From: Solirubrobacteraceae bacterium
GTDB taxonomy: Bacteria > Actinomycetota > Thermoleophilia > Solirubrobacterales > Solirubrobacteraceae
DNA length: 61,211 nucleotides
Assembly (NCBI GenBank): GCA_035604915.1
Contig: DATNHQ010000023.1
Coordinates: forward strand, 1-61,211
Reading direction: 5' to 3'
Shown: piece by piece, positions 5,519-19,780 of the stretch
Layout of the letters: the number at the start of each line of letters is the position of its first letter
Numbering within the stretch: position 1 is the stretch's first letter
Position numbers and translations under genes: made by a program
Notes under the pieces: generated by a model
What the model was told of the DNA's origin: nothing
Databases searched by the model: none
The model's input: the letters and a program-made list of their open reading frames with translations, nothing else

Positions 5519-5559
5519 CCCGAACCAGACCAACTTCTAAAGGAAGGACGGGGAACCGT

Positions 5560-6936: not shown

Positions 6937-6938
6937 AG

Positions 6939-7310
6939 ATGGAGCCTGCGATGCACACAGCAACCGTCGTGCACAGCCACGGAGGGCCGGCGCACAGCCA
7001 CGAAGTGGGCATCGGCACCCCGGCGTCGAGCGCGAGCGTCGCGCTCGACATCGGGGGCGGACGCGGCGCGCTGATCATCTATCCGAGCGAGCGTTATCGC
7101 GGGCTCGAGATCGAGATCAGCCCCGCGGACGGGAGCGGGCACCGAGTCCATACCGGTGTCCACGAGCGCAGCTCGGACGCTGGCTCCACGCTGACCGCGA
7201 TCTTCGGATCGCTCCCGGCCGGGCGGTACATCGTCTGGTGTGACGAAGCGACAGCCGGTGAAACCGTCACGGTGCCCGACGGAGCGATCGCGGAAGTCAA
7301 CCTCGCCTAG
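6939..7310 (+). CDS. Hypothetical small protein with His-rich N-terminus
   Basis: ATG 6939 lies 2 nt after the DUF4331 stop. The sequence is MEPAMHTATVVHSHGGPAHSHEV... followed by a beta-rich segment (GALIIYPSERYRGLEIEI...GRYIVWCDE). I recognise no family. Confidence 0.55.
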   Translation: MEPAMHTATVVHSHGGPAHSHEVGIGTPASSASVALDIGGGRGALIIYPSERYRGLEIEISPADGSGHRVHTGVHERSSDAGSTLTAIFGSLPAGRYIVWCDEATAGETVTVPDGAIAEVNLA

Positions 7311-7423: not shown

Positions 7424-8830
7424 CTACCGCTCGAACCCGAATTCGGCCTGCGTCTGGCGGGTCGTCGGAGTCGAGGCCGGCGCTGTCACCGCCGCGCTCG
7501 GAGACTGGGTGGCCGCCGTCGTCACCGGCGCTGTGGTGGCGATCGCGGTGGGGCTGGCCGCATGAGCTCGGGGCCTGGCGAACTCTCGGCTTATCTGCTG
7601 CACGGCGGTAACGCGCCGCGGCCTCGACTGAAGCGCTTTCGGTGACGGCGCGGCCGCGGTCGGTGACTGCGACCCCGATATGTGCGCCAGATCGGTCACG
7701 GTCCGCTTCGAACGAGCCCGCGCGACGTTCCGGTGGGGCGAGGTCGTCGTCGCGTCTGTGGCATACACGCGAGTGGGGTGAGGGGCGAAGCCCAAAGGCG
7801 GCACGATGCCAAGATGCGCGCACGCGGCGTAGCTTCCGGCGACGCTCGCAACGCAGACAACCGCGATGCCGACCTTGAGTGCGCCGAGGCCGGCCATCGA
7901 TCCGCCCGCGGCTCCGACGCCGCTGGATCCCGTTTCGGCGAGCGGGTGACGGGCGATCGCGAACGCGCGCCGCAGGCCCGCCCAGACGCCACCTAGCTTG
8001 AACCAGGCCGCGCCGCCGGCGAGCCCGGCCGGCAGCGGTAGGATCGCAGCGACGCGGCGCGCGGCGCGATCCACGTCGCCTGCTCTACGGGCACAGGATT
8101 GGCAGTTCGCGAGGTGCGCTCTTGCGCGGAGGAGCGGTTGGCCTTCGGCGACCCCCGCGCTCAAAGCGAGGATGTCTGGCTCGAGGCGCTGGCAGCGGTC
8201 ACCTCGTTCGTACTCCTCGACCAGCACCCGAAGTTTCGCGCGCGCCCGCTGGGCGACCTTGCGGTACTTCTCAACGGACCACCCGTAGCGCGAGCAGAAC
8301 TCGCCGGCGCCCATATCGACACACACCTGGCTCGCGAGCACTAGCTGCTGGTCGCGGCTCAGATCGGCGATGACCTCGCGCAACCGGCTCAGCTCGGTCC
8401 GCGCGATCACCTGCTGCTCGACCGCGGCGCGACGGTCCTCGAGATCGCGTGCACCGTGCTCGAAAGAGTCGACCGATACCGCACGGGCCATCGCCGCCTC
8501 GATCGAACTGCGCCCCCCGATTGCCCGACGTCTGTCCTCGATTCTGCTGACGAACTTCTGTTCGAGAGCGTTGAGGAGGTGGTCAAGTGAAACGAAGGGC
8601 GACCGCCGTGAGCGCGCGACGAGTTCGAGCGTCGCTTGGCTGTAGCAGTCCTCGAGGTCCTCCCGCCGCAGCTTGCGGCGGTAGACCCGAAGCATCCGGT
8701 CTCGCCTAGCGTCGGCGACCTGACCCACCGCCTCCGCCGGGTCATTGGCAGCATCGCGACTCGCAAACCCCATCCTGGGTTCTTCCGACGGCAGTCGAGG
8801 GATCGGGACAGCGTCCATCCGGCTTTCCAT
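7424..8830 (-). CDS. ECF sigma factor fused to a ZAS-type anti-sigma domain, a TM helix and a Ser/Thr/Pro/Ala-rich extracytoplasmic tail
   Basis: Sigma region 2-like (REDLEDCYSQATLELV) and region 4-like (LSRDQQLVLAS...GWSVEKYRKVAQRARAKLR) segments come first. The zf-HC2 motif HLANCQSC (H-x3-C-x2-C) follows, then the TM segment LGALKVGIAVVCVASVAGSYAACA and a low-complexity tail ending AEFGFER. Confidence 0.7.
   Translation of the reverse strand: MESRMDAVPIPRLPSEEPRMGFASRDAANDPAEAVGQVADARRDRMLRVYRRKLRREDLEDCYSQATLELVARSRRSPFVSLDHLLNALEQKFVSRIEDRRRAIGGRSSIEAAMARAVSVDSFEHGARDLEDRRAAVEQQVIARTELSRLREVIADLSRDQQLVLASQVCVDMGAGEFCSRYGWSVEKYRKVAQRARAKLRVLVEEYERGDRCQRLEPDILALSAGVAEGQPLLRARAHLANCQSCARRAGDVDRAARRVAAILPLPAGLAGGAAWFKLGGVWAGLRRAFAIARHPLAETGSSGVGAAGGSMAGLGALKVGIAVVCVASVAGSYAACAHLGIVPPLGFAPHPTRVYATDATTTSPHRNVARARSKRTVTDLAHISGSQSPTAAAPSPKALQSRPRRVTAVQQISREFARPRAHAASPTAIATTAPVTTAATQSPSAAVTAPASTPTTRQTQAEFGFER
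7427..7456 (+). repeat. Copy B of the quasi-palindromic motif (contains perfect CCGAATTCGG)
   Basis: ccgctcgaacccgaattcggcctgcgtctg. On the minus strand it encodes the last residues (AEFGFER-stop) of the sigma/anti-sigma fusion gene. Confidence 0.6.
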
Positions 8831-9179
8831 AACTGCGCGCGCAGTCTATGCGCAGGTGCCGGTGGCGCTTGGTGAATTACCTCCGCTCTCAACCTCGAGC
8901 GACGCTGTGGCGCGCGAGCCGCACCGGCCCCCGATAGCCGAAGCCAACACGCTCAGCCGCGACGAGTCGCGTGGCATCCGTCGCTTGTCCCGCGCGCGGC
9001 GCGGGGGTCGGAACAAACCGGCGAGTCCCCTTGGCCGCCATCGCTCAACCCGAATCCACCCTCGTCCGCGCAGCCAGCCGGGTGCTGGACGAGCGCCGGC
9101 GTGGCATCCGCCCGCCTTTCGGCGTCGCCCCCCAGGCGCTGCGCGGTGCGAGCCACGCCGGCGCCGGTGGGGGTTCGTG

Positions 9180-9764
9180 ATGCGGCGGAGACCGACCGCC
9201 GTGTACCGAGTGATCGACGAAGAGGAGCTGCTCGGGGGCGGGTCTGAGCTGATCGCAGAAGGCATGGCAACCCCGGTCGATCTCGAACGCGCAATCTCTG
9301 GGCGCGCGCGGCGGCGTCTGCGGTTCGACGGCGCTTGGGGCTCAACCGCCGCGGCGGTGGTCGGACTCTCCGGGATCGCTGCTCTTCTGCTCGCAACATC
9401 AACGCACGCGCCCGCCTCTCTCCGACCGCCGCGCCTCGCGACATCGTCACGCCAGCCTCCACCAAGCGGGTTTCGCCCCGCGGCACTCACTGCGACGACG
9501 CGCCCGCACACAAAGCTCCGCGAACACAGGCGTGGAAGGCCGCGCGTCACCGGCCGTTCTCAGCGGCGACGGCTGCACCGGCGGGTGCTCCATCGCGAGG
9601 ATCGCTCCCGGAACACGTCAGCGCAGTTGGCGCGGGCGCAATCCGTTAAGCCGCCCGTCGGCTCGGCGACGGAGGCTCGTCCCGTCCAGGCGCCCGAACC
9701 CGACGTGACGCCCGCAAGGGGCGGGAGCACCGGGCCGAGCGGCGAGTTCGGGTTCGAGCGGTGA
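9180..9764 (+). CDS. Single-pass membrane protein, Arg/Pro-rich, ends GEFGFER
   Basis: ATG 9180 (GTG 9177 is an alternative). The TM segment is AAAVVGLSGIAALLLATS. The stop overlaps the next gene's start (GTGA). I recognise no family. Confidence 0.5.
   Translation: MRRRPTAVYRVIDEEELLGGGSELIAEGMATPVDLERAISGRARRRLRFDGAWGSTAAAVVGLSGIAALLLATSTHAPASLRPPRLATSSRQPPPSGFRPAALTATTRPHTKLREHRRGRPRVTGRSQRRRLHRRVLHREDRSRNTSAQLARAQSVKPPVGSATEARPVQAPEPDVTPARGGSTGPSGEFGFER
9743..9761 (-). repeat. Copy C of the motif, inverted orientation
   Basis: cgagttcgggttcgagcgg is the reverse complement of ccgctcgaacccgaactcg and matches copy B at 18/19 positions. It encodes EFGFER at the C-terminus of the 9180-9764 gene. 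Confidence 0.6.
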
Positions 9765-10603
9765 GCGCACGGCCGTCCCGCGCCCGCGTGACGCTCCAAC
9801 CGCGCCGCCTATGGTCGCTGCGGGTCTCGCAGGGTGCCACTCGTTGGGTGCTCTACGCGGTCGCTGCCGTCGGCGTTGGAGCCACGGTTCGCAATGCCGT
9901 CGATCCTCCCGTCCGCCGCGCCGTCGCCGCGGTCGCAAGGCCGGTGTCAGATGCCGGCTCGGCATGGTTCGCCCTCAGCTTCGCCCGCGCGTACCTCACC
10001 TGGCCGGGCAACCCAACCGCACAGCAACGAGCTCTGTCCTCGTTCCTCGCGCCCACCGTCGACCCGGCGGCCGGGCTGAGCCTTGCACCGACCAGCACGG
10101 AGTCTGTGGGCTGGATGGCGATCGCAGCTGAGCAGGACGACGGCAACGGCGACCGCGACTACACGATCGCGGCCGACACGAAAGCCGGCCTTCGATACAT
10201 GGTGGTTGCTGTCGGTCGCGGCGCCGACGGTCGTCCGGTGCTGGCCCACTATCCGGCACTCGTCGGTCCACCGGCTAACGACCCGGCGAGCACGCTCGAC
10301 GGCGAATCGCTGCCGGTCGTGAGTAACGGAGCCGTCGAAGCGGTACTCGATCGCGCGCTTCGCAACTACATCAGCGATTCGAGCGAGAACCTGGCCGCCG
10401 ACCTCACGCCTGGAGCGCTTGTCGACCCGGTCGCTTCGGGTCTGATCCCGCGCGGCATCGAAAGGCTGGCGGCCGAGTCCTCGGGCTCTGTGCTCGCGAC
10501 GGTGCGCGCAGCCGACGCAAGCGGCGACGTCTTCACGCTCGCGTTCGAGGTTGCGCTCGTGGAATTGCACGGGCGCTGGGAGATAACGCGAATCGGGCCA
10601 TGA
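9761..10603 (+). CDS. TcpC-family conjugal-transfer-like protein (VirB8-like role)
   Basis: An N-terminal TM (WVLYAVAAVGVGATV) is followed by WFALSFARAYLTWPGN, typical of the first NTF2-like domain of TcpC/Orf13 proteins. A second similar module lies at the C-terminus. Confidence 0.65.
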   Translation: MSARPSRARVTLQPRRLWSLRVSQGATRWVLYAVAAVGVGATVRNAVDPPVRRAVAAVARPVSDAGSAWFALSFARAYLTWPGNPTAQQRALSSFLAPTVDPAAGLSLAPTSTESVGWMAIAAEQDDGNGDRDYTIAADTKAGLRYMVVAVGRGADGRPVLAHYPALVGPPANDPASTLDGESLPVVSNGAVEAVLDRALRNYISDSSENLAADLTPGALVDPVASGLIPRGIERLAAESSGSVLATVRAADASGDVFTLAFEVALVELHGRWEITRIGP

Positions 10604-10623
10604 CAACAGAGCGGAGGAACACG

Positions 10624-10947
10624 ATGAAGAGACTGATCGCGTGCGGAGTCGCGACCGCGTGGTTCTTGGTGGGGGCAGGCGCGGCGCTGGGCGCGAGCTC
10701 GTTGACGAATGCCAACGGCGCCTCGCTGGAAAGCGCAGCGAGCCAGGCGAGCGACACCGGCAGGACGGTCGCGCTCAGCCTGATCGGGCTCGCGCTCGCC
10801 GTCGCCGCTGTGGTGCTCGTGTTCAAGAGGGACTTCAAGGAAGCGGTCGGTGTGCTGGCGATTGGGATCATCGCCGTGCTCCTCGCCAGCCCGGCCGGTT
10901 TGAGCGTGCTGCAGAACACGGTGTCACTCCTGTTCGGCTCTCACTGA
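10624..10947 (+). CDS. Small secreted two-TM hairpin protein (VirB2/TrbC-like topology; TcpD/PrgF position)
   Basis: RBS ggagg lies 6 nt before ATG 10624. The signal peptide is MKRLIACGVATAWFLVGAGAALGA. Two hydrophobic helices are separated by KRDFKEA. An alternative ATG is at 10600. Confidence 0.6.
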   Translation: MKRLIACGVATAWFLVGAGAALGASSLTNANGASLESAASQASDTGRTVALSLIGLALAVAAVVLVFKRDFKEAVGVLAIGIIAVLLASPAGLSVLQNTVSLLFGSH

Positions 10948-10991
10948 CCAGTGGCGCCAGAACACAACCTGACACGTCCGTACGGACATGG

Positions 10992-11579
10992 GTGGTGACC
11001 GCGCAACTCGAGATCCGCTCGTTCCGCTCGGTCTTCGCGCTCGAGCGACGCGTGTACAGGATCGACACGCTGCGGCTAAATCCGGGTGGGGTGCCGCTGC
11101 GGGGCATCGCGTATGCAGTGGTGCTTGTGCTGCTGGCGTTGGTCGGCGGTGCGGTCCCTCCGACGGCATGGCTCGACGCCCTGGTCCCGTGGTACGTGCG
11201 CGACATCGCCATCCCAGTCGGCCTGGCGACGCTGCTCGGCGCGGTGCGGCTTGACGGGCGGCCGTTTCACATCGCCGCCCAAGCGATCGGTGGGTACGCA
11301 TTGGGTCCGCGCCGCTTGCACAGCCTCGCGGCTGCGCCGCGCACGCAGCGGTGGGACCCGCCGGAGCTGCTCCTGATACCCGATGGCTCCGACTCACGTT
11401 TTCGTTCGTTGCGTTTTCGCGGTCCGGGCGCCGTGCTCGTGCAACACCCGCATCTTCGCGCGGAGTGGCCCGCCCGCGCTCGCGCCTCCATCACGCTGCA
11501 CCCTCTCCGCGGGACAGCCGGACGCGCAAGCGTGGTCGAACTTGCTCCGGGCGTCGTGCTCGAGGTCCGCACGAGGTGA
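10992..11579 (+). CDS. TcpE-family (VirB3-like) conjugal-transfer membrane protein
   Basis: GTG 10992. The block FRSVFALERRVYRIDTLRLNPGGVPLRGIAYAVVLVLLAL plus a second TM matches the TcpE pattern. The stop overlaps the VirB4 start. Confidence 0.6.
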   Translation: MVTAQLEIRSFRSVFALERRVYRIDTLRLNPGGVPLRGIAYAVVLVLLALVGGAVPPTAWLDALVPWYVRDIAIPVGLATLLGAVRLDGRPFHIAAQAIGGYALGPRRLHSLAAAPRTQRWDPPELLLIPDGSDSRFRSLRFRGPGAVLVQHPHLRAEWPARARASITLHPLRGTAGRASVVELAPGVVLEVRTR

Positions 11580-14008
11580 ACCTGCGGCGACCGCTGACGT
11601 TCGTCTACGGCAACTGCGTTCACGGCGCCTGCGGTGCCTGGGCGCTGTTCGTGCTGGAGCCCTACAGCTACGCGACGCTCACGGCCGAACGCAAGCGCGA
11701 GCGCTTCGGCCGCCTGCTCACAGCAATCGAGTCGCTGGAAGCAGACCTTCAGATCCTGCGCGTGGATCGACGTTGGGATCCAGCCAGCGAGCTCGAACAG
11801 CTCGGCGCAACGTATGCCGGTCCGCACCCTCACGCGCACCGTGCCTACGTAGGGTCTCAGCTCGAGGCCCTCGGCGAGGAGCGCGCCGAGTTGCCGACGG
11901 TCTTTCTCGGAGTCAGTCTCGAACCGCCGCAGCGCGACGTCTCAACATTCCTCTCGGAACTCGCAAGCCGGTCGGCGCGCGACTCTTGGCGAGCGTTCGG
12001 ACGCGCGATGCGCGTGGGCCCGGCGGGCGAGTTGTCCGCCGCCGAGCTGGAGCGGCTGCGCATGCGCTCCGACGAGGTCCACGCCCGTCTCGCATCGAGC
12101 GTGCCGGCGCGGCCGGCGCGGACCGTAGAGGTGCAGTGGCTCGTCAGGCGAGCGTTCTGCCGCGCGCTCGGGGAGCCGGAAGTCGACGGTCTCCACGAGC
12201 CCCGGGCGCTGGTCTTCGAGCGCAACGGCGCGGCTGTGCTCGCGCCGCTGGAGGCGGACGTGATGCGGTGGAGCGAAAGCTACGTCGAGCACCGCGGCCG
12301 CCTGCTCCGAGTCGAGTCTGAGCTGGGATCGAGCTGGCAGGCGCAGCTCGTAGCCGGGGCCCTTCCGGAGAGCGCGGCTTTCCCAAGCTCACGGCTCGAG
12401 CTGATGTTCGCTCCCGCAGAGGCGCTCCAGTTCGGAATCGATCTAACCCTCTGCGCCCGATACCTCCCAAACGACCTCGCCATGCGGCTTGTGCGCCGCC
12501 GCGTCCAGGATGCGGACGAGATCATGAGAGCCGAGGCCGGCGGGGACCAGGGCGTCTCTGACCGCGGCTACGACCGCACGCAGGAGGCACGCGACCTCCT
12601 TTCCTACCTGCAATCGGCCAGCCATCCGCCGCTGTTGCGAGCAGTGCTGGCCGTATCCGTCGCCGCCAGCACCGAGGATGAGCTCGAGCGGCGCGTCGAA
12701 GCGGTTCGCCGCGCGTTCGGCGAGGTGCGGTTGCACCGCCCTCTGGGCGACCAGTTGCGGTTGTTCATCGCAGGCCTGCCGGGTCAGCGCTGCGCGGTCG
12801 CCGGGTATGACGATGTTCTGACCTGCGAACAGGTCGCGGCGATGATGCCGCTTGCGACCCACGCGGTGGGCTCCCCGCGTGGGTTCCACCTCGGCCACAC
12901 GCTGACCGCGACGCGCCATCCCGTTCGCCTCAACCTGCGAGAGGGCTCGGACGAGGATCGCAACGCCGCGATCCTTTCGATCGGCTCGCTCGGGTCGGGC
13001 AAGACCACGCTCGACCAGAAGCTTGCCTACGAGGCGTTCCTGCTCGGAGCGCGCGTGATCGATTGCGACCCAAAGGGCGACCACCGGATGCACGAGTTGC
13101 CCGAGGTCGCACCGCACGTCGAGACGATCGCACTGCGAGGCGACCGCGCATTGCGTGGCATGCTCGATCCGCTGCGGATCGCACCGGAGCACCTCCGCCA
13201 GGACGCCACCGTCTCGTTCCTGTGCGATCTGCTGCCGGCACGCTCCGAAGCTGCCTGGGAGACCGCGGTAGCGGGGGCGGTTGATGCCGTGCGCCGGCGC
13301 TCCAGGGAGCCGACTTGCTTCGAGGTGATCCGCGCGCTGGCGGCGGGCGACGCGGTCGACCAGCAGGTGGCGAAGACGCTCGCTGTCTACGCCGGTGCTG
13401 GACTAACCCAACTCGGCTTCGCGGACCCCGACGTCCGCCTCCCGAAGGTGGGGACGAGGCAGGTCACCTATGTGCCGATACGCGACCTACCGGCCCCGGC
13501 CCCTGGGAGCACGCGTTCGGAGTACTCGCCGCTCGAGCGGATCGGGGAGCAGATCGTTCGGCTGATCGCGATGTTCGCGATGGCGCTGTTGTCCGCGGAA
13601 CGCTCGCGCCTAAAGGTCTTCTCGTTTGACGAGGGCTGGCGTCTGCTCGGCGACCCGGTCGGGCGGATGCTGCTGGCGTCGCTCCAGAGGATGGGTCGGA
13701 GCGAGCTCGCCGTTCCAATCATCTCGACCCAATTGGTCAGCGATGCATTGCTGGACGGCCGCGAGACGCTCGAGAACCTCATCGGCGCGACCTTCGTTTT
13801 CGGGTTACGCTCGGAACGCGAGGCGGAGAGGGCGCTCGCGCTGCTCGACCTCGACCCGAATGACCGCGCGCTGCGCGACCGACTGCTCGGTTTCGATGCC
13901 GGTCGCTGTCTCATGCGTGACCACCGCGGACGCGTTGAGGCCGTGCAGGTGGAGGTGCTCGTTCCCAGGCTGCTCGCGGCGTTCTCGACGACACCGCCGC
14001 CACGATGA
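11576..14008 (+). CDS. VirB4/TcpF/TraE-family T4SS ATPase
   Basis: GTG 11576 (GTGA overlap). Walker A is GSLGSGKTT and Walker B is KVFSFDEGW. The size, about 810 aa, is typical of VirB4. Confidence 0.85.
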   Translation: MNLRRPLTFVYGNCVHGACGAWALFVLEPYSYATLTAERKRERFGRLLTAIESLEADLQILRVDRRWDPASELEQLGATYAGPHPHAHRAYVGSQLEALGEERAELPTVFLGVSLEPPQRDVSTFLSELASRSARDSWRAFGRAMRVGPAGELSAAELERLRMRSDEVHARLASSVPARPARTVEVQWLVRRAFCRALGEPEVDGLHEPRALVFERNGAAVLAPLEADVMRWSESYVEHRGRLLRVESELGSSWQAQLVAGALPESAAFPSSRLELMFAPAEALQFGIDLTLCARYLPNDLAMRLVRRRVQDADEIMRAEAGGDQGVSDRGYDRTQEARDLLSYLQSASHPPLLRAVLAVSVAASTEDELERRVEAVRRAFGEVRLHRPLGDQLRLFIAGLPGQRCAVAGYDDVLTCEQVAAMMPLATHAVGSPRGFHLGHTLTATRHPVRLNLREGSDEDRNAAILSIGSLGSGKTTLDQKLAYEAFLLGARVIDCDPKGDHRMHELPEVAPHVETIALRGDRALRGMLDPLRIAPEHLRQDATVSFLCDLLPARSEAAWETAVAGAVDAVRRRSREPTCFEVIRALAAGDAVDQQVAKTLAVYAGAGLTQLGFADPDVRLPKVGTRQVTYVPIRDLPAPAPGSTRSEYSPLERIGEQIVRLIAMFAMALLSAERSRLKVFSFDEGWRLLGDPVGRMLLASLQRMGRSELAVPIISTQLVSDALLDGRETLENLIGATFVFGLRSEREAERALALLDLDPNDRALRDRLLGFDAGRCLMRDHRGRVEAVQVEVLVPRLLAAFSTTPPPR

Positions 14009-16458
14009 GCCGATCGCGCTACCGGTGGCTCTCGCTGGTTCTGGTTGCAGGCGCGCTGTGCTGCAGCACCGGGATTGCGGCTGCGGCGGACGGGGTCACA
14101 TCGGTGGCCGCGAGTCCGCTCGCCGCGAACGGTTTCGAGAGCCCGTCGTGCTCGTCGGCGCAACTCGAGGCCCAGCTCTCGCAATCAGAGCAAGCCAACT
14201 GCGCGATTTCCGGAGTGGCCGTGGCACCGGTGCCGCTGTCCAACTACGCCGTCGACATCGAAATCCCGGCGGGCCTCAGCGCGAGCTTCAGCGAGGACAT
14301 CGACTCGATCGTCCAGGACCTTTTCGTGACCCCCGTCTGGACGGCGCTGGTGTGGCTGATCCACGTGGCGCTGATCGCGCTGGAGTGGTGTTACTCGCTC
14401 GACCTCCTTGCGCCGGCGACGTTGTCACGCGCCGCCTCGGCTCTTGGCGGTGCCCGGCGGGTCTTCACGGATCCGTGGCTCGGCCTCGCGCTGGCTGTCG
14501 CGGCTGTCGGGTTCGCCTGGCAGGGGCTCGTTCGTCGCCGCGTGCTCGACACGCTGGGACAGGCGGCGCTGCTGGCGGTGATGATGCTCGCCGGACTTTG
14601 GATCATCGCCGACCCATCGGGGACGGTCGGCGCCGTCGGAGGTCTGGCCGATCGTGCCGCGCTCGCCACGGTCGCGGCGAGCGCGACCGGCGATCCCGGC
14701 AGTCCCGTCGCGACGGTTGACGGCGCGTTCGCGACCGTCTTCGACAGCGCCATCAGCGGACCGTGGTGCTACCTGGAGTTCGGAGACGTCGACTGGTGCC
14801 GGGATCCAGCCTCGCTCGATCCTCACCTGCGCGCGACCGCGACGCGGCTGGAGACGCTGTATCGCGCGGAGGCCTCGTGTCGTGGGCCGACGGTAGGCCT
14901 CGTGCAATGCGCGCCCGGTGGCAGTGCGCTGCAGAGCCAACTGGACGGGGCGGCGGCAGCGTTGGCTGCCGCGCGCAGCAATGGCCAGTTGTTTCTGGCG
15001 CTTCCTGCGCAGGCGCTATCGCGCACGTCACTGTCAGCACAGTCGGTGACGCCGACGCTCTACGGCACGCTTTGCGGCTCCAATGACCCGTCAGCCTGCA
15101 CGGCGCCCACGGCCCCGCAGGCCGAGTTTCGCTCCGCGTCGGGCACCTGGCCAAGGGTCGGCGGGCTGCTGCTGATCGTCGCGGGCACGCTCGGGATGTT
15201 GTTGTTGCTTGGGTTCTTGGCCCTCCGGTTGCTCGGTGCGGCACTCGCAACTCTGCTGTACCTCCTCCTGGCTCCCCTGGCGGTGCTCGCTCCCGCCCTC
15301 GGCGAAGGTGGACGCGACGCGTTCCGCCTGTGGATCACGCGGCTCGTGGGGGCGACGCTGGCAAAGCTGGTGTACTCGGTCGCTCTAGGCGTCGTCCTGC
15401 TTATGGTGGCGTTGCTCGGTTCGCTCGACAACCTCGGCTGGTGGACGCAGTGGCTCCTCACCTCGGTGTTCTGGTGGACGGCGTTCGAGCAGCGCCACCG
15501 CTTGCTCTCGCTGGTGCTGCATGAGCGCTCGGAGCCAACACGTCGCGCACCGTTCGCGACGCGCGCCTGGCTCGCCGCACGCAGCGCCGGTGCGGGAGTC
15601 GGCGCGGCGCGCGCCTCGGGTCGCATAGCCGTAATCGCCGGACAGCGGGCGGTCGAGACGGCGAAGCGTTGGCGTGAGCTCCCGCGGGACGGCGTCCCGT
15701 CTACGGCGCAACGGCGGAACGCTGCTTCGGCGGAGACGGGCACTACGCGGCGCGAACAGCGCGCCGGGGTGCAACGCGAGCTCGATGAGCAGGTCGCGCG
15801 CTTCCAGGACGTCGCGTTTGGCCCGGGGGCGTTCGCCGTCTCAAGTCCCGACGCGTCGAGCACGGCGAGGATCGCTGCACGCGCCGACGTCGTCGCGCTC
15901 GAGGCCCGACAGAAACGCATCGCAACGAGCCTTCGCGACGCCCGAGCAACCGGCGATCGACGACGAGCGGTATCGCTGCAGTTGCGGGGCAGGCGTGTCG
16001 CCGAGGAGCTCAAGGCGCGCCAAACAGGCGATGGCCAGCGAGTGCCATTCGCGACGAGCGGTCGGGTGCCCGCGCGCCTGGTTCGTCTGGCGCCGACGGC
16101 GCTTCGGCAGAGGGTTGCGCAGCGCACGCTGACGCGCCAGCTCGACCTGGCGGCGCGGGCAGCACCCGGGCAGTCGCGCTCGAGCGGCATCCGCGGCGTG
16201 TCACTGGCCGGCCTTGCGGGCCTTTCTGAGGCGGAATACCTCCGTCGACCGCCGGCCGCGCAGCGCGTGGCCCGCATTGAGATCGAGCGCGAGCTCGCAA
16301 GGCGCCGCGAGTTGTTGGACGAGGTCAGTTCGGGGCGGCGCGCGCCCCTGATCCCCGGCCTGTCGGGACGCCACCGCCAGCCGGAGAAACCCAAGAGTGA
16401 ACGCCACACGTCGCCCGAGGCACGACGGGCGCGTCAGTTCGGGCGCGACACGCGGTGA
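14005..16458 (+). CDS. Polytopic membrane protein, VirB6/TcpH/TrbL-like, with Arg-rich cytoplasmic C-terminal region
   Basis: ATGA overlap with virB4. There is a signal/TM at the N-terminus and at least 6 further TM helices (e.g. LLLIVAGTLGMLLLLGFLALRLLGAALATLLYLLLAPLAVLAP). The position after VirB4 fits this role. Confidence 0.6.
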   Translation: MSRSRYRWLSLVLVAGALCCSTGIAAAADGVTSVAASPLAANGFESPSCSSAQLEAQLSQSEQANCAISGVAVAPVPLSNYAVDIEIPAGLSASFSEDIDSIVQDLFVTPVWTALVWLIHVALIALEWCYSLDLLAPATLSRAASALGGARRVFTDPWLGLALAVAAVGFAWQGLVRRRVLDTLGQAALLAVMMLAGLWIIADPSGTVGAVGGLADRAALATVAASATGDPGSPVATVDGAFATVFDSAISGPWCYLEFGDVDWCRDPASLDPHLRATATRLETLYRAEASCRGPTVGLVQCAPGGSALQSQLDGAAAALAAARSNGQLFLALPAQALSRTSLSAQSVTPTLYGTLCGSNDPSACTAPTAPQAEFRSASGTWPRVGGLLLIVAGTLGMLLLLGFLALRLLGAALATLLYLLLAPLAVLAPALGEGGRDAFRLWITRLVGATLAKLVYSVALGVVLLMVALLGSLDNLGWWTQWLLTSVFWWTAFEQRHRLLSLVLHERSEPTRRAPFATRAWLAARSAGAGVGAARASGRIAVIAGQRAVETAKRWRELPRDGVPSTAQRRNAASAETGTTRREQRAGVQRELDEQVARFQDVAFGPGAFAVSSPDASSTARIAARADVVALEARQKRIATSLRDARATGDRRRAVSLQLRGRRVAEELKARQTGDGQRVPFATSGRVPARLVRLAPTALRQRVAQRTLTRQLDLAARAAPGQSRSSGIRGVSLAGLAGLSEAEYLRRPPAAQRVARIEIERELARRRELLDEVSSGRRAPLIPGLSGRHRQPEKPKSERHTSPEARRARQFGRDTR

Positions 16459-16462
16459 ACCA

Positions 16463-17527
16463 ATGAGCGCCCGCGCCGTCGGCGGCGGTGCTCTTGTGAT
16501 CGGCGCGATGCTAGCCGGCCTGGCGGTACTCGGGGCTTGCAGCCTTCTCATGCTGCTCAGCCTCGCGCGCGGTGGCGCGAGCATCGACTCTGGAGCCGGT
16601 AGCCTCGGGCCAGAGAACGCCTACTCGCCGTCGGCGTTCGCGCGAGCCGACATCCCGCCGCTCTATCTCGAGTTGTACATGGCGGCGGCGGCGCGCTTCG
16701 GGCTCGACTGGACGATCCTCGCCGGGATCGGACGTGTCGAGTGCGACCACGGCCGAGACCCGGCGCCTTCCTGCACCGTTGAGGGTCAGTTCAATTCCGC
16801 CGGAGCGGGCGGCCCTGCGCAGTTCCTGCTCTCGACGTGGCAGCGCTACGGCATCACCGCGAGCGGCGAGGGCACGCCTGACATGTGGCATCCGTCAGAC
16901 GCGGTCTTCAGCATGGCGAACTACCTACGGGCATCCGGCGCACCCGCCGACTATTCGCAGGCGATTTGGGCCTACAACCACGCCTGGTGGTATGTGGCCG
17001 ACGTCCTCGCATTTGCCCGCCGCTACCGCGCAGCGACCGTCCCATCGGGGCTGACAGATGGCGCTCCGCGCAGCGTCGTACGCCTGGTCGCCGCCACGCC
17101 CTGGCTGGCGCCGCTTCCCGGAACAGATCTCCGCTGCGACGCGCGCATCATCCCCGATGTCGAATACATTCTCGCTCACTTCGGGCTGATCGCGACATCC
17201 TGCTACCGAAATGATGGCGCCGCCGACCACGGCGAGCATCCGCTGGGTCTAGCGCTCGACGCGGTTCCTGTCGACGGTGACTGGTCACGTGCCCTCAGTG
17301 CCGCCGAAGCGTTTGGCTGGAAGCCCGGGTGCGGGAACACGGGATGCGCCGGCCAGTTGCCGCCACCGATGCGGTTCATTGGCTACAACGGCTACCCGGG
17401 CCACGGCGACCCGGCTAACGCCGGTGCCAACGCCCACATCCATTTCTCTTGGCTCCATGCGCCGGCGGTGCCCGATAGCCAGGCGGCGTGGGTGGATGTC
17501 TTCAGCCTCGATGCCGCGATGCCCTAG
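16463..17527 (+). CDS. Bifunctional cell-wall hydrolase: lytic transglycosylase (SLT) + LAS/M15-type zinc peptidase
   Basis: ATG 16463 followed by a TM anchor. SLT motifs are GIGRVECDHG, GPAQFLLSTWQRYG and AYNHAWWY. The C-terminal EHPLGLALD (H-x2-G-x-A-x-D) plus HIHFSW (H-x-H) match the D-Ala-D-Ala carboxypeptidase fold. Confidence 0.75.
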   Translation: MSARAVGGGALVIGAMLAGLAVLGACSLLMLLSLARGGASIDSGAGSLGPENAYSPSAFARADIPPLYLELYMAAAARFGLDWTILAGIGRVECDHGRDPAPSCTVEGQFNSAGAGGPAQFLLSTWQRYGITASGEGTPDMWHPSDAVFSMANYLRASGAPADYSQAIWAYNHAWWYVADVLAFARRYRAATVPSGLTDGAPRSVVRLVAATPWLAPLPGTDLRCDARIIPDVEYILAHFGLIATSCYRNDGAADHGEHPLGLALDAVPVDGDWSRALSAAEAFGWKPGCGNTGCAGQLPPPMRFIGYNGYPGHGDPANAGANAHIHFSWLHAPAVPDSQAAWVDVFSLDAAMP

Positions 17528-17661
17528 ACCCTCATCGCCGCAACCTTTCCGCTCGCATTGGGTCTAATGGGCATCTCGGCGCATCCTGATGATCGGGGCG
17601 CCTGGCCGGCGGGCGTCCGAGGTGGCGTCTACACCTACCCGCGGAGATCAGCACAAACGAG

Positions 17662-19218
17662 ATGCGCCGAACCACCGTCACAGCCTTACTTTGCGCCGCC
17701 GCGCTCCTCGGCGCGGGTGCGCTGGCCGCCACCGCCGCCTTCGCCTCCCACAACGAGGCGGTGTTCTTCGAGGCGCCGGGCAACCTCCTCGGCGTTTCGC
17801 CGGCGCAGCGCACCAAGGCCCTGGAGCAACTGCAGTCGCTCGGGGTGCACGCGCTGCGGATCGTGCTGTATTGGCGCAACGTCGCGCCCAAGCCGAACCA
17901 CCGCCACCGGCCAAACTTCAACCAGGAGAACCCGGCGCGCTACCGCTGGGGCTCCTACGACCAGCTGATCGCCGCCGTGAGCGAGCTGCACTGGCAGATC
18001 CTGCTGACAGTCAGCGGACCGGTGCCGGACTGGGCGACCCCGCATGGCGAGGACCGGTTCACGAGCCCGAGCACCGGCGACTTCCACCAGTTCATGGTCG
18101 CGGTCGGACGCCACTACGGACGCGTCGTGAAGCTCTATTCGATCTGGAACGAGCCCAACCAGCCGGGCTTCCTGCGACCGCAGTACAGCGGCAAGCAGCT
18201 GGTCTCACCGCAGGTCTACCGCGGCCTCTTCCTCGCCGGGTACTCGGGGCTGAAGGCCTCGGGCAACTTCGCCGGGATGAAGGTGCTGATGGGGGAGACC
18301 TCGCCGATCGGCGTCGTCTCCCAGCACGTTCCCGCGCCGCTCGCGTTCCTGCGCGGCGTGCTCTGCCTCGACGCCAACTACAAACCGGTGGGCCACTGCG
18401 CGAAGCTGCCGGCCGACGGCTACGCGCAGCACCCCTACGACAACGCGAAGGGGCCGTTCGGCGACCCGCCCAAGGACGACGTCACGATCAACACGATCGG
18501 GCGCCTGGTCACGGCGCTCGACCGTGCGGCGTCGGCCGGCGCCATCCGCCATGGGCTGCCGGTCTATGTCACGGAGTTCGGCGTGCAGACCAAGCCGAAC
18601 CCCTACGTCGGTGTGACGCTCGCCCAGCAGGCCGAGTTCGGCGCGATCGCCGAGCACATCGCCTGGAGCAACCCCCGCATCGCCTCGTTCTCCCAGTATC
18701 TCCTCCGCGACGATCACCCGGTCAACGGACACGTCGTCGGCTCGCAGTCGGGGCTCGAGAACTACCGGGGCAGGCAGAAGCCGGGTTACAACGGCTTTCG
18801 CCTGCCGCTGACGGTGACGCGCACGCACAGCGGCGTCGCGCTGTGGGGACTCGTGCGCCCAGAGACCCTGCCGGGCGCAAAGGGCCCGACGGGCCCGACG
18901 GGCGCGACAGGGCCGACGGGGCGCACGGGCGCCTCCGGCGTCACCGGTGCCACCGGCACCACCGGCACGACCGGAGCGACGGGCACAACCGCGCCGATCC
19001 CGTCCCCATCGACAGTGCTCGTGCAGTACTCGACAAACGGCGGCAGGTCGTGGCACGACCTGCAGCGGGTGCACATCGGCGCGGGCGGGGTCTGGACGGC
19101 GAGTGGCCGCTATGCGACCTTCCGCTTTTGGCGGGTGGAGTGGACCTCGCCGTCCGGTCAGACGTTCGTCGGCGCGGCGATCCGCGCGTACTCGAGCTCC
19201 GGGAAGCTCGACTTCTGA
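17662..19218 (+). CDS. Secreted TIM-barrel glycoside-hydrolase-like protein with collagen-like repeat and C-terminal beta domain
   Basis: Signal peptide MRRTTVTALLCAAALLGAGALAATAAFA. GH clan-A style catalytic motifs are IWNEPN and VYVTEFG. Thirteen GXY triplets are followed by a domain of about 75 aa. Confidence 0.7.
   Translation: MRRTTVTALLCAAALLGAGALAATAAFASHNEAVFFEAPGNLLGVSPAQRTKALEQLQSLGVHALRIVLYWRNVAPKPNHRHRPNFNQENPARYRWGSYDQLIAAVSELHWQILLTVSGPVPDWATPHGEDRFTSPSTGDFHQFMVAVGRHYGRVVKLYSIWNEPNQPGFLRPQYSGKQLVSPQVYRGLFLAGYSGLKASGNFAGMKVLMGETSPIGVVSQHVPAPLAFLRGVLCLDANYKPVGHCAKLPADGYAQHPYDNAKGPFGDPPKDDVTINTIGRLVTALDRAASAGAIRHGLPVYVTEFGVQTKPNPYVGVTLAQQAEFGAIAEHIAWSNPRIASFSQYLLRDDHPVNGHVVGSQSGLENYRGRQKPGYNGFRLPLTVTRTHSGVALWGLVRPETLPGAKGPTGPTGATGPTGRTGASGVTGATGTTGTTGATGTTAPIPSPSTVLVQYSTNGGRSWHDLQRVHIGAGGVWTASGRYATFRFWRVEWTSPSGQTFVGAAIRAYSSSGKLDF
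18874..18990 (+). repeat. Collagen-like (Gly-X-Y)x13 coding repeat
   Basis: GAK GPT GPT GAT GPT GRT GAS GVT GAT GTT GTT GAT GTT, read directly in frame of the 17662 ORF. Confidence 0.9.
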
Positions 19219-19225
19219 GCGACGC

Positions 19226-19780
19226 TCAGCGGTTCTGGCCCGGCACCCACAACGGCTCCTCGCCGTGGTTGGCGTCGCGAGCGAGGATGAACAGCAGGTC
19301 GCTCAAGCGGTTGAGGTAGCGCAGCGTCTGGGGGCTCGCGGCCGGGCCGAGCGCGACGACGCGGCGCTCCGCGCGCCGGCAGACCGTGCGGCAGACGTGC
19401 AGCCACGCCGCCGCCGGCGTGCCGCCCGACAGCACGAACGAGCGCAGCGGCTCGAGCCCGGCGTTGACCTCGTCGCAGCGCTGCTCGAGCCACTCGACCT
19501 GCTCGGGCAACAGCCGCAGACGGTCGCGCGGGTCATCCTCGGGCACGGCCAGGTCGGCGCCGAGATCGAAGAGGTCGTTCTGGATCCGCCGCAGCCACTG
19601 CGCGGTTTGCGCCGGCATGTCGGCGAGCGTGAGCGCGAAGCCGATCTGCGCTCCGAGCTCATCCACCTGGCCGTATGCCTCGATCCGCGGGTCCGCCTTG
19701 GAAACGCGGCTGCGGTCGCCGAGATGAGTCTCGCCGCCGTCGCCGAGCTTGGTGTAGATGCGTGTGAGGTTGACGGTCAT
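19226..19780 (-). CDS. pduO: PduO-type ATP:cob(I)alamin adenosyltransferase
   Basis: The sequence IYTKLGDGGETHL...RIEAYGQVDELGAQIG...IQNDLFDLGADL and the 184 aa size are typical of MMAB/PduO-type enzymes. Confidence 0.9.
   Translation of the reverse strand: MTVNLTRIYTKLGDGGETHLGDRSRVSKADPRIEAYGQVDELGAQIGFALTLADMPAQTAQWLRRIQNDLFDLGADLAVPEDDPRDRLRLLPEQVEWLEQRCDEVNAGLEPLRSFVLSGGTPAAAWLHVCRTVCRRAERRVVALGPAASPQTLRYLNRLSDLLFILARDANHGEEPLWVPGQNR

What the first reader, a model, noticed from the sequence alone, without database searches (positions are those of the whole stretch)
7424..17527. Orphan Gram-positive-type T4SS module with no coupling protein, relaxase or integrase, embedded between core genes
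Positions 9761-17527 encode a TcpC-like protein, a small 2-TM protein, a TcpE/VirB3-like protein, a VirB4 ATPase (GSLGSGKTT / FSFDEGW), a VirB6-like polytopic protein and an SLT+peptidase hydrolase. The genes are tightly packed, with GTGA overlaps at 9761 and 11576 and an ATGA overlap at 14005. The order mirrors tcpC-D-E-F-(G/H) of Clostridium pCW3 and Tn916 orf13-17. Nothing in the window resembles a VirD4/TcpA/FtsK coupling ATPase, a relaxase, a replication gene, an integrase or a transposase. The flanks are ordinary metabolic genes on one side (acyl-CoA ligase, DUF4331 cassette) and a glycosidase-like gene plus a B12 uptake operon on the other. The module is instead paired divergently with a membrane-bound sigma/anti-sigma fusion. 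A channel and ATPase set without DNA-processing functions recalls the Helicobacter ComB DNA-uptake T4SS. It could therefore be a domesticated, signal-regulated T4SS used for DNA uptake, protein export or a cell-surface structure in a monoderm or actinobacterial lineage. I am not aware of a characterised example.
Basis: partly seen in the sequence, partly recalled or inferred. Interest (0 to 1): 0.85.

Follow-up and report, generated by a model that had tools for sequence, protein, structure and literature searches.

The report
Chromosomally fixed Gram-positive-type secretion channel operon
A soil actinobacterial family (Solirubrobacteraceae) keeps the channel half of a plasmid-style DNA-transfer machine as a permanent, sigma-factor-controlled chromosomal operon. 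The matching DNA-processing genes sit at a second fixed chromosomal site in this family, so the machine probably still moves DNA rather than being a true orphan.

Summary
Window 7424-17527 encodes an ECF-type sigma/ZAS anti-sigma fusion, then a translationally coupled operon. The operon holds a 1-TM protein ending in EFGFER, TcpC/VirB8-like, a VirB2/TrbC-like 2-TM protein, TcpE/VirB3-like, a TcpF-type VirB4, a VirB6-like protein and an SLT hydrolase.

No coupling protein, relaxase, integrase or tRNA lies anywhere in the 61 kb. The rest is core genes (B12 uptake, dcw cluster, glycine cleavage).

The module is not an ICE fragment. It recurs in the same order in 78 species-level Solirubrobacterales genomes, including complete chromosomes. 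It sits at a syntenic site, has dN/dS 0.1-0.36, and its divergence tracks that of a flanking housekeeping gene (r=0.93).

The "no DNA-processing functions" inference does not extend beyond the window. A Conexibacter relative has the module next to a T4CP+Replic_Relax fusion. Homologues of that fusion, with a VirD4-like T4CP and SSB, occupy a second conserved site beside hrcA-dnaJ, with hrcA adjacent in 38 loci. I could not show that both loci occur in one genome.

Best reading: this is the channel half of a split, domesticated, sigma-gated conjugation-like system. It is a new variant of a known kind. Interest 0.7.

The parts
7424..8830 (-). ECF-type sigma factor (about residues 30-205) fused to a ZAS anti-sigma motif (HLANCQSC, 8093-8116), one TM helix (residues 309-327) and a variable outer region ending in EFGFER
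   Evidence: The AF2 model has pLDDT above 90 over roughly residues 30-270, and all top 50 Foldseek PDB hits are sigma factors. The orthologue profile hits ECF sigma CnrH and 9isn_F in PDB. TIGR02937 sigma70-ECF gives E 1.5e-4. JGI names homologues 'sigma24 family', and one homologue carries PF13490 zf-HC2. All scores are below the curated cut-offs. The public gene call starts at 8695 (423 aa).
8843..8884 (-). Promoter-like motif GGAGGTAATTCACC-N-CATAGACT upstream of the sigma fusion gene
   Evidence: Found once per locus, directly upstream of the fusion-type sigma gene whichever way that gene points, in the window and nine loci from seven related genomes. Its function is inferred.
8985..9034 (+). 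Conserved TGTCCC-N14-GGTCGGAAC-N15-18-C(G/T)TG element about 170 nt upstream of the operon's first gene; it resembles an ECF promoter (GGAAC...CGT)
   Evidence: Alignment of the regions upstream of the p194 gene in ten loci of the window's clade. Inference only.
9180..9764 (+). p194: single-pass membrane protein with an N-terminal RRRPxAVYRV(I/Y)xEEE(L/F)L motif, a variable low-complexity region and an invariant C-terminal EFGFER; translationally coupled to TcpC (GTGA)
   Evidence: An ORF ending on the TcpC start codon carries an EFGFE(R/Q/...)-type tail in 54 of 64 loci. No Pfam or NCBIfam family matches.
9761..10603 (+). TcpC / VirB8-like cell-wall-spanning component
   Evidence: PF12642 gives 26.6 bits in the window and hits 35 of 37 orthologues, best E 3e-11.
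10600..10947 (+). p115: signal peptide plus a two-helix hairpin with an RRDFKE loop; VirB2/TrbC-pilin-like, in the position of ConC/TcpD
   Evidence: PF04956 TrbC gives E 0.014 in the window and hits 17 of 37 orthologues, best E 2.9e-5. The mature ~70-aa part is the best conserved stretch of the alignment. dN/dS is 0.14-0.21. A profile search of PDB was uninformative.
10992..11579 (+). TcpE / VirB3-like membrane protein
   Evidence: PF12648 gives E 0.003 in the window and hits 29 of 37 orthologues, best E 4e-7.
11576..14008 (+). VirB4-family ATPase of the TcpF/ConE/Orf16 type, with intact Walker A and B motifs
   Evidence: AAA_10 scores 160 bits. NCBIfam ATPase_TcpF aligns end to end, E 7.9e-56. 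There are 1448 homologues; 119 of the 120 listed are 67-91% identical and the other is the window's own protein. dN/dS is 0.10-0.12.
14005..16458 (+). VirB6-like polytopic membrane protein with a signal peptide, at least 6 TM helices and a long Arg-rich C-terminal tail
   Evidence: NCBIfam CD3337/EF1877 mobilome membrane protein, E 1e-10. TrbL hits 11 of 33 orthologues, best E 1e-6. Hydrophobic segments.
16463..17527 (+). Membrane-anchored peptidoglycan hydrolase: SLT/MltB-like lytic transglycosylase plus a C-terminal M15-like (LAS) domain
   Evidence: SLT_2 scores 40 bits in the window and hits 33 of 33 orthologues. MltB gives E 1e-9. The M15 assignment rests on a motif and one weak precomputed hit. 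PDB phmmer on the C-terminal half found nothing.
7426..7445 (.). Left arm of a 20-nt inverted repeat (95% complementary) whose right arm is at 9743-9762; the arms are the EFGFER-stop codons of the sigma fusion and of p194
   Evidence: the repeat finder pair I2.

Best explanation
What it is: the mating-pair-formation (channel) half of an MPF_FA-class type IV secretion system, of the kind found in Tn916, ICEBs1, pCW3 and Streptomyces plasmids. Here it has become a fixed, vertically inherited chromosomal operon in Solirubrobacteraceae.

Shown:
- The gene set is VirB8-like, VirB2-like, VirB3-like, VirB4, VirB6-like and a cell-wall hydrolase.
- The genes are translationally coupled.
- The module is conserved at one chromosomal site under purifying selection.
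- A dedicated ECF-type sigma factor heads the operon. In this clade it is fused to a ZAS anti-sigma domain and a membrane anchor.
- T4CP, relaxase and integrase are absent locally.

Inferred mechanism:
1. A signal releases the tethered sigma factor, which turns the operon on.
2. The hydrolase opens the wall. TcpC spans it. VirB3, VirB4 and VirB6 form the ATP-driven membrane translocon. p115 may form a short VirB2-like fibre.
3. Substrate is delivered in trans by coupling proteins and a relaxase encoded elsewhere. The candidates are the family's conserved T4CP-Replic_Relax fusion, VirD4-like T4CP and SSB beside hrcA-dnaJ, and small T4CP-bearing integrative elements.

On this reading the apparatus works as a signal-gated DNA-transfer channel. 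It would move chromosomal DNA, mobilisable elements or both, rather than being a coupling-protein-less secretion or uptake machine.
For: Identity of the parts.

Same gene order, with T4CP and replication-relaxation genes, in Bacillus and Streptomyces plasmids.

Fixed chromosomal status:
- 78 distinct loci, nearly all Solirubrobacterales, including six complete chromosomes.
- The order is conserved in about 67-79 of 82 loci.
- Shared flanks: Cob adenosyltransferase, DUF4430, CbiQ and AlaDH downstream.
- VirB4 identity tracks Cob adenosyltransferase identity, r=0.93.
- dN/dS is 0.10-0.36.
- No tRNA or integrase in the window.

Sigma factor. One conserved promoter-like motif per locus lies in front of the sigma gene.

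Links to DNA processing:
- Conexibacter L067 has the module followed by a 1415-aa T4CP+Replic_Relax fusion.
- That fusion has 663 homologues. Many are named Solirubrobacteraceae and lie on contigs of 2-3.6 Mb.
- The context TetR, fusion, T4CP, SSB, MaoC, HrcA, DnaJ is conserved in 4 of 4 Mb-size contigs, and hrcA is adjacent in 38 loci in all.
- None of the 84 fusion loci contains a VirB4.
- In complete chromosome OY970379.1 (L059), virB4 is split by a 7.8-kb serine-recombinase element. The element carries a bona fide T4CP behind a copy of the operon's own promoter motif, with a PWM score of 31.7, equal to the median of true sites.
Against: - Co-residence of the two loci in one genome was not demonstrated.
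- The promoter motif of the module is not found at the T4CP-relaxase loci scanned, L089, L090, L091 and L093.
- No oriT is known.
- The T4CP-relaxase locus could serve another T4SS, or be an inert remnant.
- Module genes have lower GC3 than flanking genes (0.75-0.86 against 0.91-0.93, one flank gene at 0.82) and about twice the dS. This could reflect lateral allele exchange rather than strict vertical descent.
- Pfam and NCBIfam scores for TcpE, TrbC, TrbL and the sigma factor are all below the curated cut-offs.
Confidence: 0.5

Rival explanations
1. Truly coupling-protein-independent, exapted T4SS. The module works without any T4CP or relaxase. It would export a protein, build a VirB2-like surface fibre or adhesin, or take up DNA as ComB does. 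It would be under sigma/anti-sigma control.
For: - No T4CP or relaxase lies within 10 kb in any of the Solirubrobacteraceae-type loci except the L059 insert, and none within 47 kb downstream in the window.
- The VirB2-like p115 is strongly conserved.
- The two EFGFER-tailed membrane proteins could be substrates or partners.
- There is a precedent in Patescibacteria: a chromosomal T4SS without a relaxase but with VirB2-like pilins (PMC12102498; PMC12857230 section 22).
- The module's promoter motif is absent from the T4CP-relaxase loci scanned.
Against: - Cognate T4CP and relaxase genes are abundant and chromosomally fixed in the same family.
- The nearest mobile relatives of this module all pair with exactly that T4CP and relaxase type.
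- A T4CP-bearing element targets virB4 and shares its promoter motif.
- No candidate effector is conserved in the locus.
- For DNA uptake specifically, there is no comEC or comEA link, and no known monoderm precedent.
Confidence: 0.3
2. The two loci are unrelated. The module is a public channel used only by small mobilisable elements that bring their own T4CP and relaxase. The hrcA-adjacent locus is a separate fossil element.
For: - The L059 element carries its own T4CP and the operon's promoter motif.
- L031 has a second serine-recombinase insert between virB4 and the VirB6-like gene.
- Integrase-bearing elements sit at tRNA genes next to the T4CP-relaxase locus in L090.
Against: - Only 2 of 82 T4SS loci carry such inserts.
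- Selection on host genes is hard to explain solely by benefit to the elements.
- The hrcA-adjacent locus is itself conserved: two fusions share 68% identity and there are many invariant columns.
Confidence: 0.12
3. Decaying remnant or fragment of a conventional ICE whose integrase, T4CP and relaxase lie outside the window.
For: - Module GC3 is lower than that of the flanks.
- A PemK toxin-antitoxin pair is inserted in the locus in some relatives.
- The Conexibacter relative looks like a complete conjugative set.
Against: - The ORFs are intact with dN/dS 0.1-0.36.
- The same chromosomal site and order recur in 78 species-level genomes.
- There is no integrase, tRNA or direct-repeat border.
- Divergence of the module tracks that of a flanking gene.
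Confidence: 0.04

Closest known systems
MPF_FA conjugation modules of Tn916 (orf13-16), ICEBs1 (ConB-ConC-ConD-ConE-ConG-CwlT) and pCW3 (TcpC-D-E-F-H-G)
   Same: Same components in the same order: VirB8-like, a small 2-TM protein, VirB3-like, a TcpF-type VirB4, a VirB6-like protein and a bifunctional wall hydrolase, with translational coupling.
   Different: - At most about 27% VirB4 identity to any plasmid copy.
- No adjacent TcpA-type T4CP, relaxase or integrase.
- Fixed in the chromosome and vertically inherited.
- Headed by its own sigma factor and an EFGFER-tailed membrane protein.
- Hydrolase is SLT plus M15-like rather than muramidase plus NlpC/P60.
Streptomyces linear-plasmid T4SS clusters (e.g. 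NZ_CP109398) and the Conexibacter sp. CPCC 205762 element (L067)
   Same: Actinobacterial versions with the same order. They use a DUF87/TcpA-like T4CP and a Replic_Relax relaxase, fused in Conexibacter. Conexibacter also carries two copies of a promoter-like motif related to the one in front of the sigma gene.
   Different: - In those elements the T4CP and relaxase lie within 2-12 kb of the module.
- The Streptomyces plasmid region also carries two site-specific integrases.
- Here the module is separated from any such genes and sits among core genes.
Patescibacteria (Saccharibacteria) chromosomal T4SS
   Same: A monoderm-type T4SS of MPF_FATA/FA ancestry. It is chromosomal, widely conserved in the lineage, has no relaxase in the cluster, and has VirB2-like pilins (PMC12102498; PMC12857230 section 22).
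   Different: - The Patescibacteria loci include a VirD4-like T4CP and arrays of pilin genes, and serve an epibiotic lifestyle.
- Here the host is a free-living soil actinobacterium with a single pilin-like gene, no local T4CP and sigma/anti-sigma control.
- A relaxase exists elsewhere in the family.
T4CP-less T4SSs of Gram-negative bacteria (Helicobacter ComB, Bordetella Ptl, Brucella VirB)
   Same: A channel plus VirB4 without a VirD4 in the locus.
   Different: - Those are diderm systems with VirB7, VirB9 and VirB10.
- Their genomes lack a cognate relaxase and T4CP for the system.
- No homology beyond the core VirB parts. This is a resemblance in logic only.
ECF sigma factors with fused C-terminal anti-sigma or TM extensions (ZAS-type, zf-HC2)
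   Same: Sigma-2 and sigma-4 fold, an HxxxCxxC motif and a TM helix in one polypeptide.
   Different: - Too divergent to reach the Pfam or TIGRFAM thresholds.
- In most relatives the sigma is a separate 210-256-aa protein.
- The outer region ends in the EFGFER motif shared with the operon's first protein.

Membership tests
Gram-positive (MPF_FA) type IV secretion system | VirB4-family ATPase with Walker A and B motifs | tested here: met
   AAA_10 scores 160 bits. ATPase_TcpF aligns end to end, E 7.9e-56. Motif positions.
Gram-positive (MPF_FA) type IV secretion system | VirB8-like TcpC component | tested here: met
   PF12642 hits 35 of 37 orthologues, best E 3e-11. The window copy scores 26.6 bits against a cut-off of 27.
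Gram-positive (MPF_FA) type IV secretion system | VirB3-like TcpE component | tested here: inconclusive
   PF12648 hits 29 of 37 orthologues at E<0.1, best E 4e-7. The window copy gives E 0.003, below the gathering score.
Gram-positive (MPF_FA) type IV secretion system | VirB6-like polytopic membrane protein | tested here: inconclusive
   CD3337/EF1877 family, E 1e-10, 40.9 bits against a cut-off of 120. TrbL hits 11 of 33 orthologues. At least 6 hydrophobic helices.
Gram-positive (MPF_FA) type IV secretion system | Dedicated peptidoglycan hydrolase (VirB1 analogue) | tested here: met
   SLT_2 is above its cut-off in the window and hits 33 of 33 orthologues.
Gram-positive (MPF_FA) type IV secretion system | Type IV coupling protein (VirD4 or TcpA) encoded with the system | tested here: not met
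   None in the 61-kb window. Among the 82 related loci, the only T4CP-like hits within 10 kb are in Conexibacter L067 and in the L059 insert. Candidates exist at a distant conserved locus in the family.
Integrative and conjugative element (ICE) | Integrase or recombinase, and att or tRNA borders flanking the module | tested here: not met
   No integrase domain or tRNA in the window. No tRNA in 8 related loci. No direct repeats bound the block. The flanks are syntenic core genes.
Integrative and conjugative element (ICE) | Relaxase and oriT within the element | tested here: not met
   No relaxase homologue in the window, nor in any related locus except Conexibacter L067. oriT is not testable here.
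ComB-type DNA-uptake T4SS | T4SS without T4CP or relaxase in the genome, functionally tied to ComEC-dependent transformation | not testable with these tools
   The whole genome is not available. At family level a T4CP and relaxase do exist, which argues against this reading. No competence genes lie in the window.
VirB2/TrbC pilin | Cleavable leader, two hydrophobic helices with a short charged loop, and sequence match to PF04956 | tested here: inconclusive
   The topology fits. PF04956 hits 17 of 37 orthologues at E<0.1, best E 2.9e-5, and the window copy scores 16.1 bits against a cut-off of 27.9. The PDB profile search gave no pilin hit.
ECF (group 4) sigma factor with ZAS anti-sigma domain | Sigma-2 and sigma-4 domains | tested here: met
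   All top 50 Foldseek hits are sigma factors. The SigD region-4 structure 3vfz matches with TM 0.87 and rmsd 1.1. The profile hits ECF sigma CnrH. TIGR02937 covers residues 48-202 at E 1.5e-4, below its cut-off.
ECF (group 4) sigma factor with ZAS anti-sigma domain | HxxxCxxC zinc motif followed by a TM helix | tested here: met
   H239, C243 and C246 are invariant in 46 homologues. PF13490 is present in homologue P0207. The TM helix is at residues 309-327. Zinc binding and sigma inhibition are not testable here.

The most novel reading that the evidence does not exclude
An entire actinobacterial family has domesticated a conjugation machine and split it into two fixed chromosomal loci. One is a sigma/anti-sigma-gated channel operon with a VirB2-like fibre protein. 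The other is a T4CP-relaxase-SSB locus beside hrcA-dnaJ. The host would use them for regulated transfer or release of chromosomal DNA, a T4SS-based form of bacterial 'sex' in a monoderm, and the system would also be parasitised by T4CP-bearing elements that insert into virB4.
Probability: 0.3. Interest if true: 0.88.

Novelty: new variant of a known kind. Interest (0 to 1): 0.7.

Why it matters
A 2025 review (PMC12857230) says nearly all known Gram-positive T4SSs are conjugation systems carried on mobile elements. It calls the question of whether monoderm T4SSs have been recruited for host functions a long-standing one.

Here a T4SS module is conserved at one chromosomal site across at least 78 species-level genomes of an abundant soil lineage. 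It is under purifying selection and has its own sigma factor. It may also include a VirB2-like protein, a component otherwise reported in monoderm-type T4SSs only for Patescibacteria.

If the distant T4CP-relaxase locus is its partner, this would be a host-owned, signal-gated DNA-transfer system. That has consequences for gene flow in soil Actinomycetota. If it is not the partner, this would be, as far as I know, the first coupling-protein-independent T4SS described in a monoderm.

Either outcome can be tested directly from existing complete MAG chromosomes.

Tried and rejected
- Exact look-up of window proteins in the contig index gave nothing. The window is itself a 61,211-bp contig (P0121).
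- Conserved k-mers 150-250 nt upstream of the sigma gene looked like a regulatory element. They turned out to be the coding start of the divergent BrkB-like gene.
- I suspected a tRNA integration site upstream of the module. None was found.
- I tested whether the 232/249-aa proteins next to the T4CPs are sigma paralogues. hhalign probability was 0.1%.
- A profile of p115 against PDB hit only a designed coiled coil.
- PDB phmmer with the hydrolase C-terminal half gave no hit.
- I tried to show that the T4SS and T4CP-relaxase loci share a genome, using contig lengths and NCBI accession blocks. There was no overlap, which is uninformative given the truncated lists.
- The module's promoter motif was not found at the T4CP-relaxase loci scanned, L089, L090, L091 and L093.
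- Recent horizontal acquisition was suggested by the low GC3. I rejected it as the main story, because the same offset is seen across genomes and the synteny and co-divergence are strong.

Full report
**1. What is in the window**

The window is about 70% G+C. Between 7424 and 17527 lie one minus-strand gene and eight plus-strand genes.

The plus-strand genes are packed with start/stop overlaps: GTGA at 9761, ATGA at 10600, GTGA at 11576 and ATGA at 14005.

Pfam on the window proteins:
- TcpC: 26.6 bits, cut-off 27
- TrbC/VirB2: E 0.014
- TcpE: E 0.003
- AAA_10 for the VirB4: 160 bits
- SLT_2: 40 bits
- No hit for the 468-aa, 194-aa and 817-aa proteins

Several of these scores are marginal, so I scanned orthologues one by one:
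- TcpC: 35 of 37
- TcpE: 29 of 37
- TrbC/VirB2: 17 of 37, best E 2.9e-5
- TrbL/VirB6: 11 of 33, best E 1e-6
- SLT_2: 33 of 33

NCBIfam aligns the VirB4 end to end with the TcpF conjugal ATPase model (E 7.9e-56). It places the 817-aa protein in the CD3337/EF1877 'mobilome membrane protein' family (E 1e-10). Both scores are below the curated cut-offs.

The Walker A and B motifs are intact. The hydrolase most likely starts at ATG 16463.

**2. The rest of the window**

I called genes from codon statistics. I then scanned 40 of the genes outside the module, all those of at least 180 aa and several shorter, against Pfam.
- Upstream: NicO, a Fur-like regulator, an F420H2-dependent quinone reductase, an acyl-CoA ligase and DUF4331.
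- Downstream: Cob adenosyltransferase; DUF4430, CbiQ, ABC and ECF-S (B12-type uptake); AlaDH/PntB; GlpD; FolP; Rho; RsmH and the whole dcw cluster through FtsZ; glycine cleavage; an aminoacyl-tRNA synthetase; ScpA/B.

No coupling ATPase, relaxase, replication protein, integrase or transposase was found. There is no tRNA gene. No direct repeats bound the block.

**3. It is a fixed chromosomal module, not an ICE fragment**

- The VirB4 has 1448 homologues. Of the 120 listed, 119 are 67-91% identical and the other is the window's own protein. The only organism name given is Solirubrobacteraceae.
- A scan of one genome per species returned 78 distinct loci. Nearly all are Solirubrobacterales MAGs, including six complete chromosomes. 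One is Conexibacter, at 46% identity.
- tblastn with the window proteins recovers the same order in about 67-79 of 82 loci: sigma, TcpC, p115, TcpE, VirB4, VirB6-like, SLT. The small EFGFER-tailed protein diverges too fast for tblastn. It was found separately in 54 of 64 loci.
- Gene tables with precomputed Pfam for six independent contexts show core neighbours and shared downstream synteny: Pyr_redox/PAP2 or directly Cob adenosyltransferase, then DUF4430, CbiQ and AlaDH. None shows a mobility gene other than a PemK toxin pair in one lineage.
- VirB4 identity to the window co-varies with that of the flanking Cob adenosyltransferase (r=0.93, n=16).
- dN/dS against four relatives is 0.10-0.12 for VirB4 and 0.14-0.36 for the other genes.

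One caveat remains. Module genes have lower GC3 than most flanking genes (0.75-0.86 against 0.91-0.93) and about twice the dS. The GC3 offset recurs in other genomes. It may reflect weak codon bias, or allele exchange between lineages.

**4. The regulator**

The 468-aa protein has no Pfam hit, but several lines identify it as a sigma factor:
- A profile of 46 orthologues hits two ECF sigma factors in PDB.
- TIGR02937 covers residues 48-202.
- JGI names homologues 'sigma24 family', and one homologue carries zf-HC2.
- An AlphaFold model built on 46 homologues is confident over roughly residues 30-270.
- All 50 best Foldseek matches to that model are sigma factors. The SigD region-4 structure matches at TM 0.87.
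- H239, C243 and C246 (HxxxCxxC) are invariant. A TM helix follows.

The fusion is special to the window's clade. Most genomes have a separate 210-256-aa sigma as the first, co-directional gene of the operon. The gene is inverted only in the window and three relatives.

Conserved promoter-like motifs:
- A bipartite motif, GGAGGGGGGTC-N16-17-CGACAT, lies 7 nt before the GTG start. This suggests a leaderless transcript. It occurs once per locus in about 60 genomes.
- The window's clade has GGAGGTTATTCC...CATACACT instead (window 8884-8843, minus strand).
- The window's clade also has a GGAAC...CGT-like element upstream of the operon (8985-9034).

Which promoters the sigma reads is inference.

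**5. Two further conserved parts**

- The first operon gene (p194) encodes a single-pass membrane protein. It has an N-terminal AVYRVxxEEELL motif and an invariant C-terminal EFGFER, seen in 54 of 64 loci. The sigma fusion ends in the same six residues. This gives a 20-nt inverted repeat at 7426-7445 and 9743-9762. Its role is unknown.
- p115 has a variable leader. Its mature two-helix part is the best conserved stretch of the alignment, and it gives the TrbC/VirB2 signal noted above.

**6. Where are the coupling protein and relaxase?**

The nearest plasmid-borne relatives have at most about 27% VirB4 identity. They show the same gene order plus a DUF87/TcpA-like T4CP and a 'replication-relaxation' relaxase.

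In Conexibacter L067 the module is followed by a 1415-aa protein. Its N-terminal part hits the Bacillus plasmid's DUF87/TcpA-like T4CP and its C-terminal part is a Replic_Relax domain. This is a positive control for the searches.

That protein, other T4CP, relaxase and integrase references, and an HMM built from 60 homologues find nothing in the window. In the other loci they find nothing except in L059.

A database search with the Conexibacter fusion gave a different picture at family level:
- It returned 663 homologues of 1200-1400 aa. Many are named Solirubrobacteraceae and lie on 2-3.6-Mb contigs.
- All four Mb-size contexts I looked up share one arrangement: TetR, fusion, a 317-aa protein, a response-regulator-like protein, a VirD4-like T4CP (TrwB_AAD_bind, TraG-D_C), a ~240-aa protein, SSB, MaoC x2, HrcA, DnaJ, PrmA. 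Two of them have no integrase.
- In L090 the upstream integrase is separated from this block by tRNA-Glu and tRNA-Leu. It therefore belongs to another element.
- Two fusions from different chromosomes are 68% identical. That is the same range as VirB4 divergence across the family.
- A JGI metagenome scan added 80 loci. hrcA adjacency is seen in 38 loci. Five loci with at least 10 kb of flank lack it, and the rest are too short to tell. The p317-to-SSB block is inverted in about 9 loci. None of the 84 loci contains VirB4, TcpC, p115 or the VirB6-like gene.

Each locus alone is therefore 'orphan'. Together they make a complete MPF_FA-type set.

**7. A physical link**

In complete chromosome OY970379.1 (L059), virB4 is split. 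Residues 2-686 are encoded at 10001-12166 and residues 681-809 at 19947-20333. The 7.8-kb insert carries:
- a large serine recombinase
- a nucleotidyltransferase
- a bona fide T4CP, above the Pfam thresholds
- a copy of the operon's promoter motif directly upstream of the T4CP operon, scoring as high as the median true site

L031 has a second serine-recombinase insert between virB4 and the VirB6-like gene.

T4CP-bearing elements thus target, and appear co-regulated with, this T4SS.

**8. Interpretation**

Shown: this is a complete Gram-positive-type channel module. It is fixed in the chromosome, under purifying selection and headed by a dedicated ECF-type sigma factor. It has no local T4CP, relaxase or integrase.

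Inferred: it works in trans with the family's conserved T4CP-relaxase locus, with small T4CP-bearing elements, or with both. It would then act as a signal-gated DNA-transfer channel.

The main gap is that I could not show both loci in one genome.

It remains possible at about 0.3, with DNA uptake the least likely variant. An ICE remnant is essentially excluded.

**9. Literature and novelty**

I found no paper on T4SSs in Solirubrobacterales or Thermoleophilia.

The 2025 review states that nearly all Gram-positive T4SSs known are conjugative. The exceptions it gives are S. suis 89K and Patescibacteria. It also says VirB2 homologues are otherwise absent from monoderm systems (section 22).

This locus is a new variant of a known kind: an MPF_FA module that is host-fixed, sigma-controlled and physically separated from its probable DNA-processing partners. 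A search of 1.84 billion cluster representatives shows a continuum of relatives from 50% down to 27% identity. It is therefore not an isolated family.

Noticed in passing
L059 12166-19947 (OY970379.1, complete chromosome): virB4 is interrupted by a 7.8-kb element. The element carries a large serine recombinase (18502-19956, minus strand), a VirD4-like T4CP (16056-17684), a nucleotidyltransferase and a copy of the T4SS operon's promoter motif at 15354. It resembles 'skin'-type intervening elements that split and restore a host gene.
   Followed up: partly
L031, about 12430-16390: A second serine-recombinase gene (14956-16419, minus strand; E 7e-90 to the L059 enzyme) lies in a ~4-kb insert between virB4 and the VirB6-like gene.
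   Followed up: no
window 7426-7445 and 9743-9762; proteins 7424-8830(-) and 9180-9764(+): Both membrane proteins end in EFGFER, which creates a 20-nt inverted repeat. The motif is the invariant C-terminus of the protein upstream of TcpC in 54 of 64 loci. No known family or function.
   Followed up: partly
window 7424-8830 compared with L002, L005, L013, L050: The sigma fusion gene points either way among close relatives. It is on the minus strand in the window, L005, L013 and L050, and on the plus strand in L002, L006 and L008-L010. It keeps its own promoter-like motif in both orientations. No recombinase lies nearby.
   Followed up: partly
L089-L173 (T4CP-relaxase loci beside hrcA-dnaJ): The block from the 317-aa gene to SSB is inverted relative to the relaxase fusion in about 9 loci (for example L100, L105, L110, L161). 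In a few loci the fusion itself is inverted (L129, L134, L171). This points to recurrent local inversions.
   Followed up: no
L001-L003, about 6740-7310: An antitoxin and PemK toxin pair is inserted between the sigma fusion gene and the first operon gene in one lineage.
   Followed up: no
window 17662-19218: A secreted 518-aa protein with a weak GH5-like N-terminal part, a collagen-like G-x-T repeat (residues 404-441) and a C-terminal BNR/Reelin-like segment lies directly after the hydrolase. It is conserved only in the window's subclade (10 loci), so it is not a core part of the module.
   Followed up: partly
window 24172-25674: An ECF-transporter S-component is fused to a prenyltransferase/squalene-hopene-cyclase-like alpha-toroid domain, inside the B12-type uptake operon (DUF4430 x2, CbiQ, ABC).
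   Followed up: no
window 9761-17527 compared with 3211-6936 and 17662-21699: Module genes have GC3 of 0.75-0.86 and dS of about 0.8-1.4 against relatives. Most flanking genes have GC3 of 0.91-0.93, and the three flank genes compared have dS of 0.37-0.72. The GC3 offset recurs in other genomes.
   Followed up: partly
L067 3416 and 5984 (Conexibacter sp. CPCC 205762): Two copies of a related promoter-like motif (GGGGGGTACA...TTCCGACAT) precede genes upstream of TcpC in the complete conjugative-type element. tblastn finds no sigma homologue in that locus.
   Followed up: no
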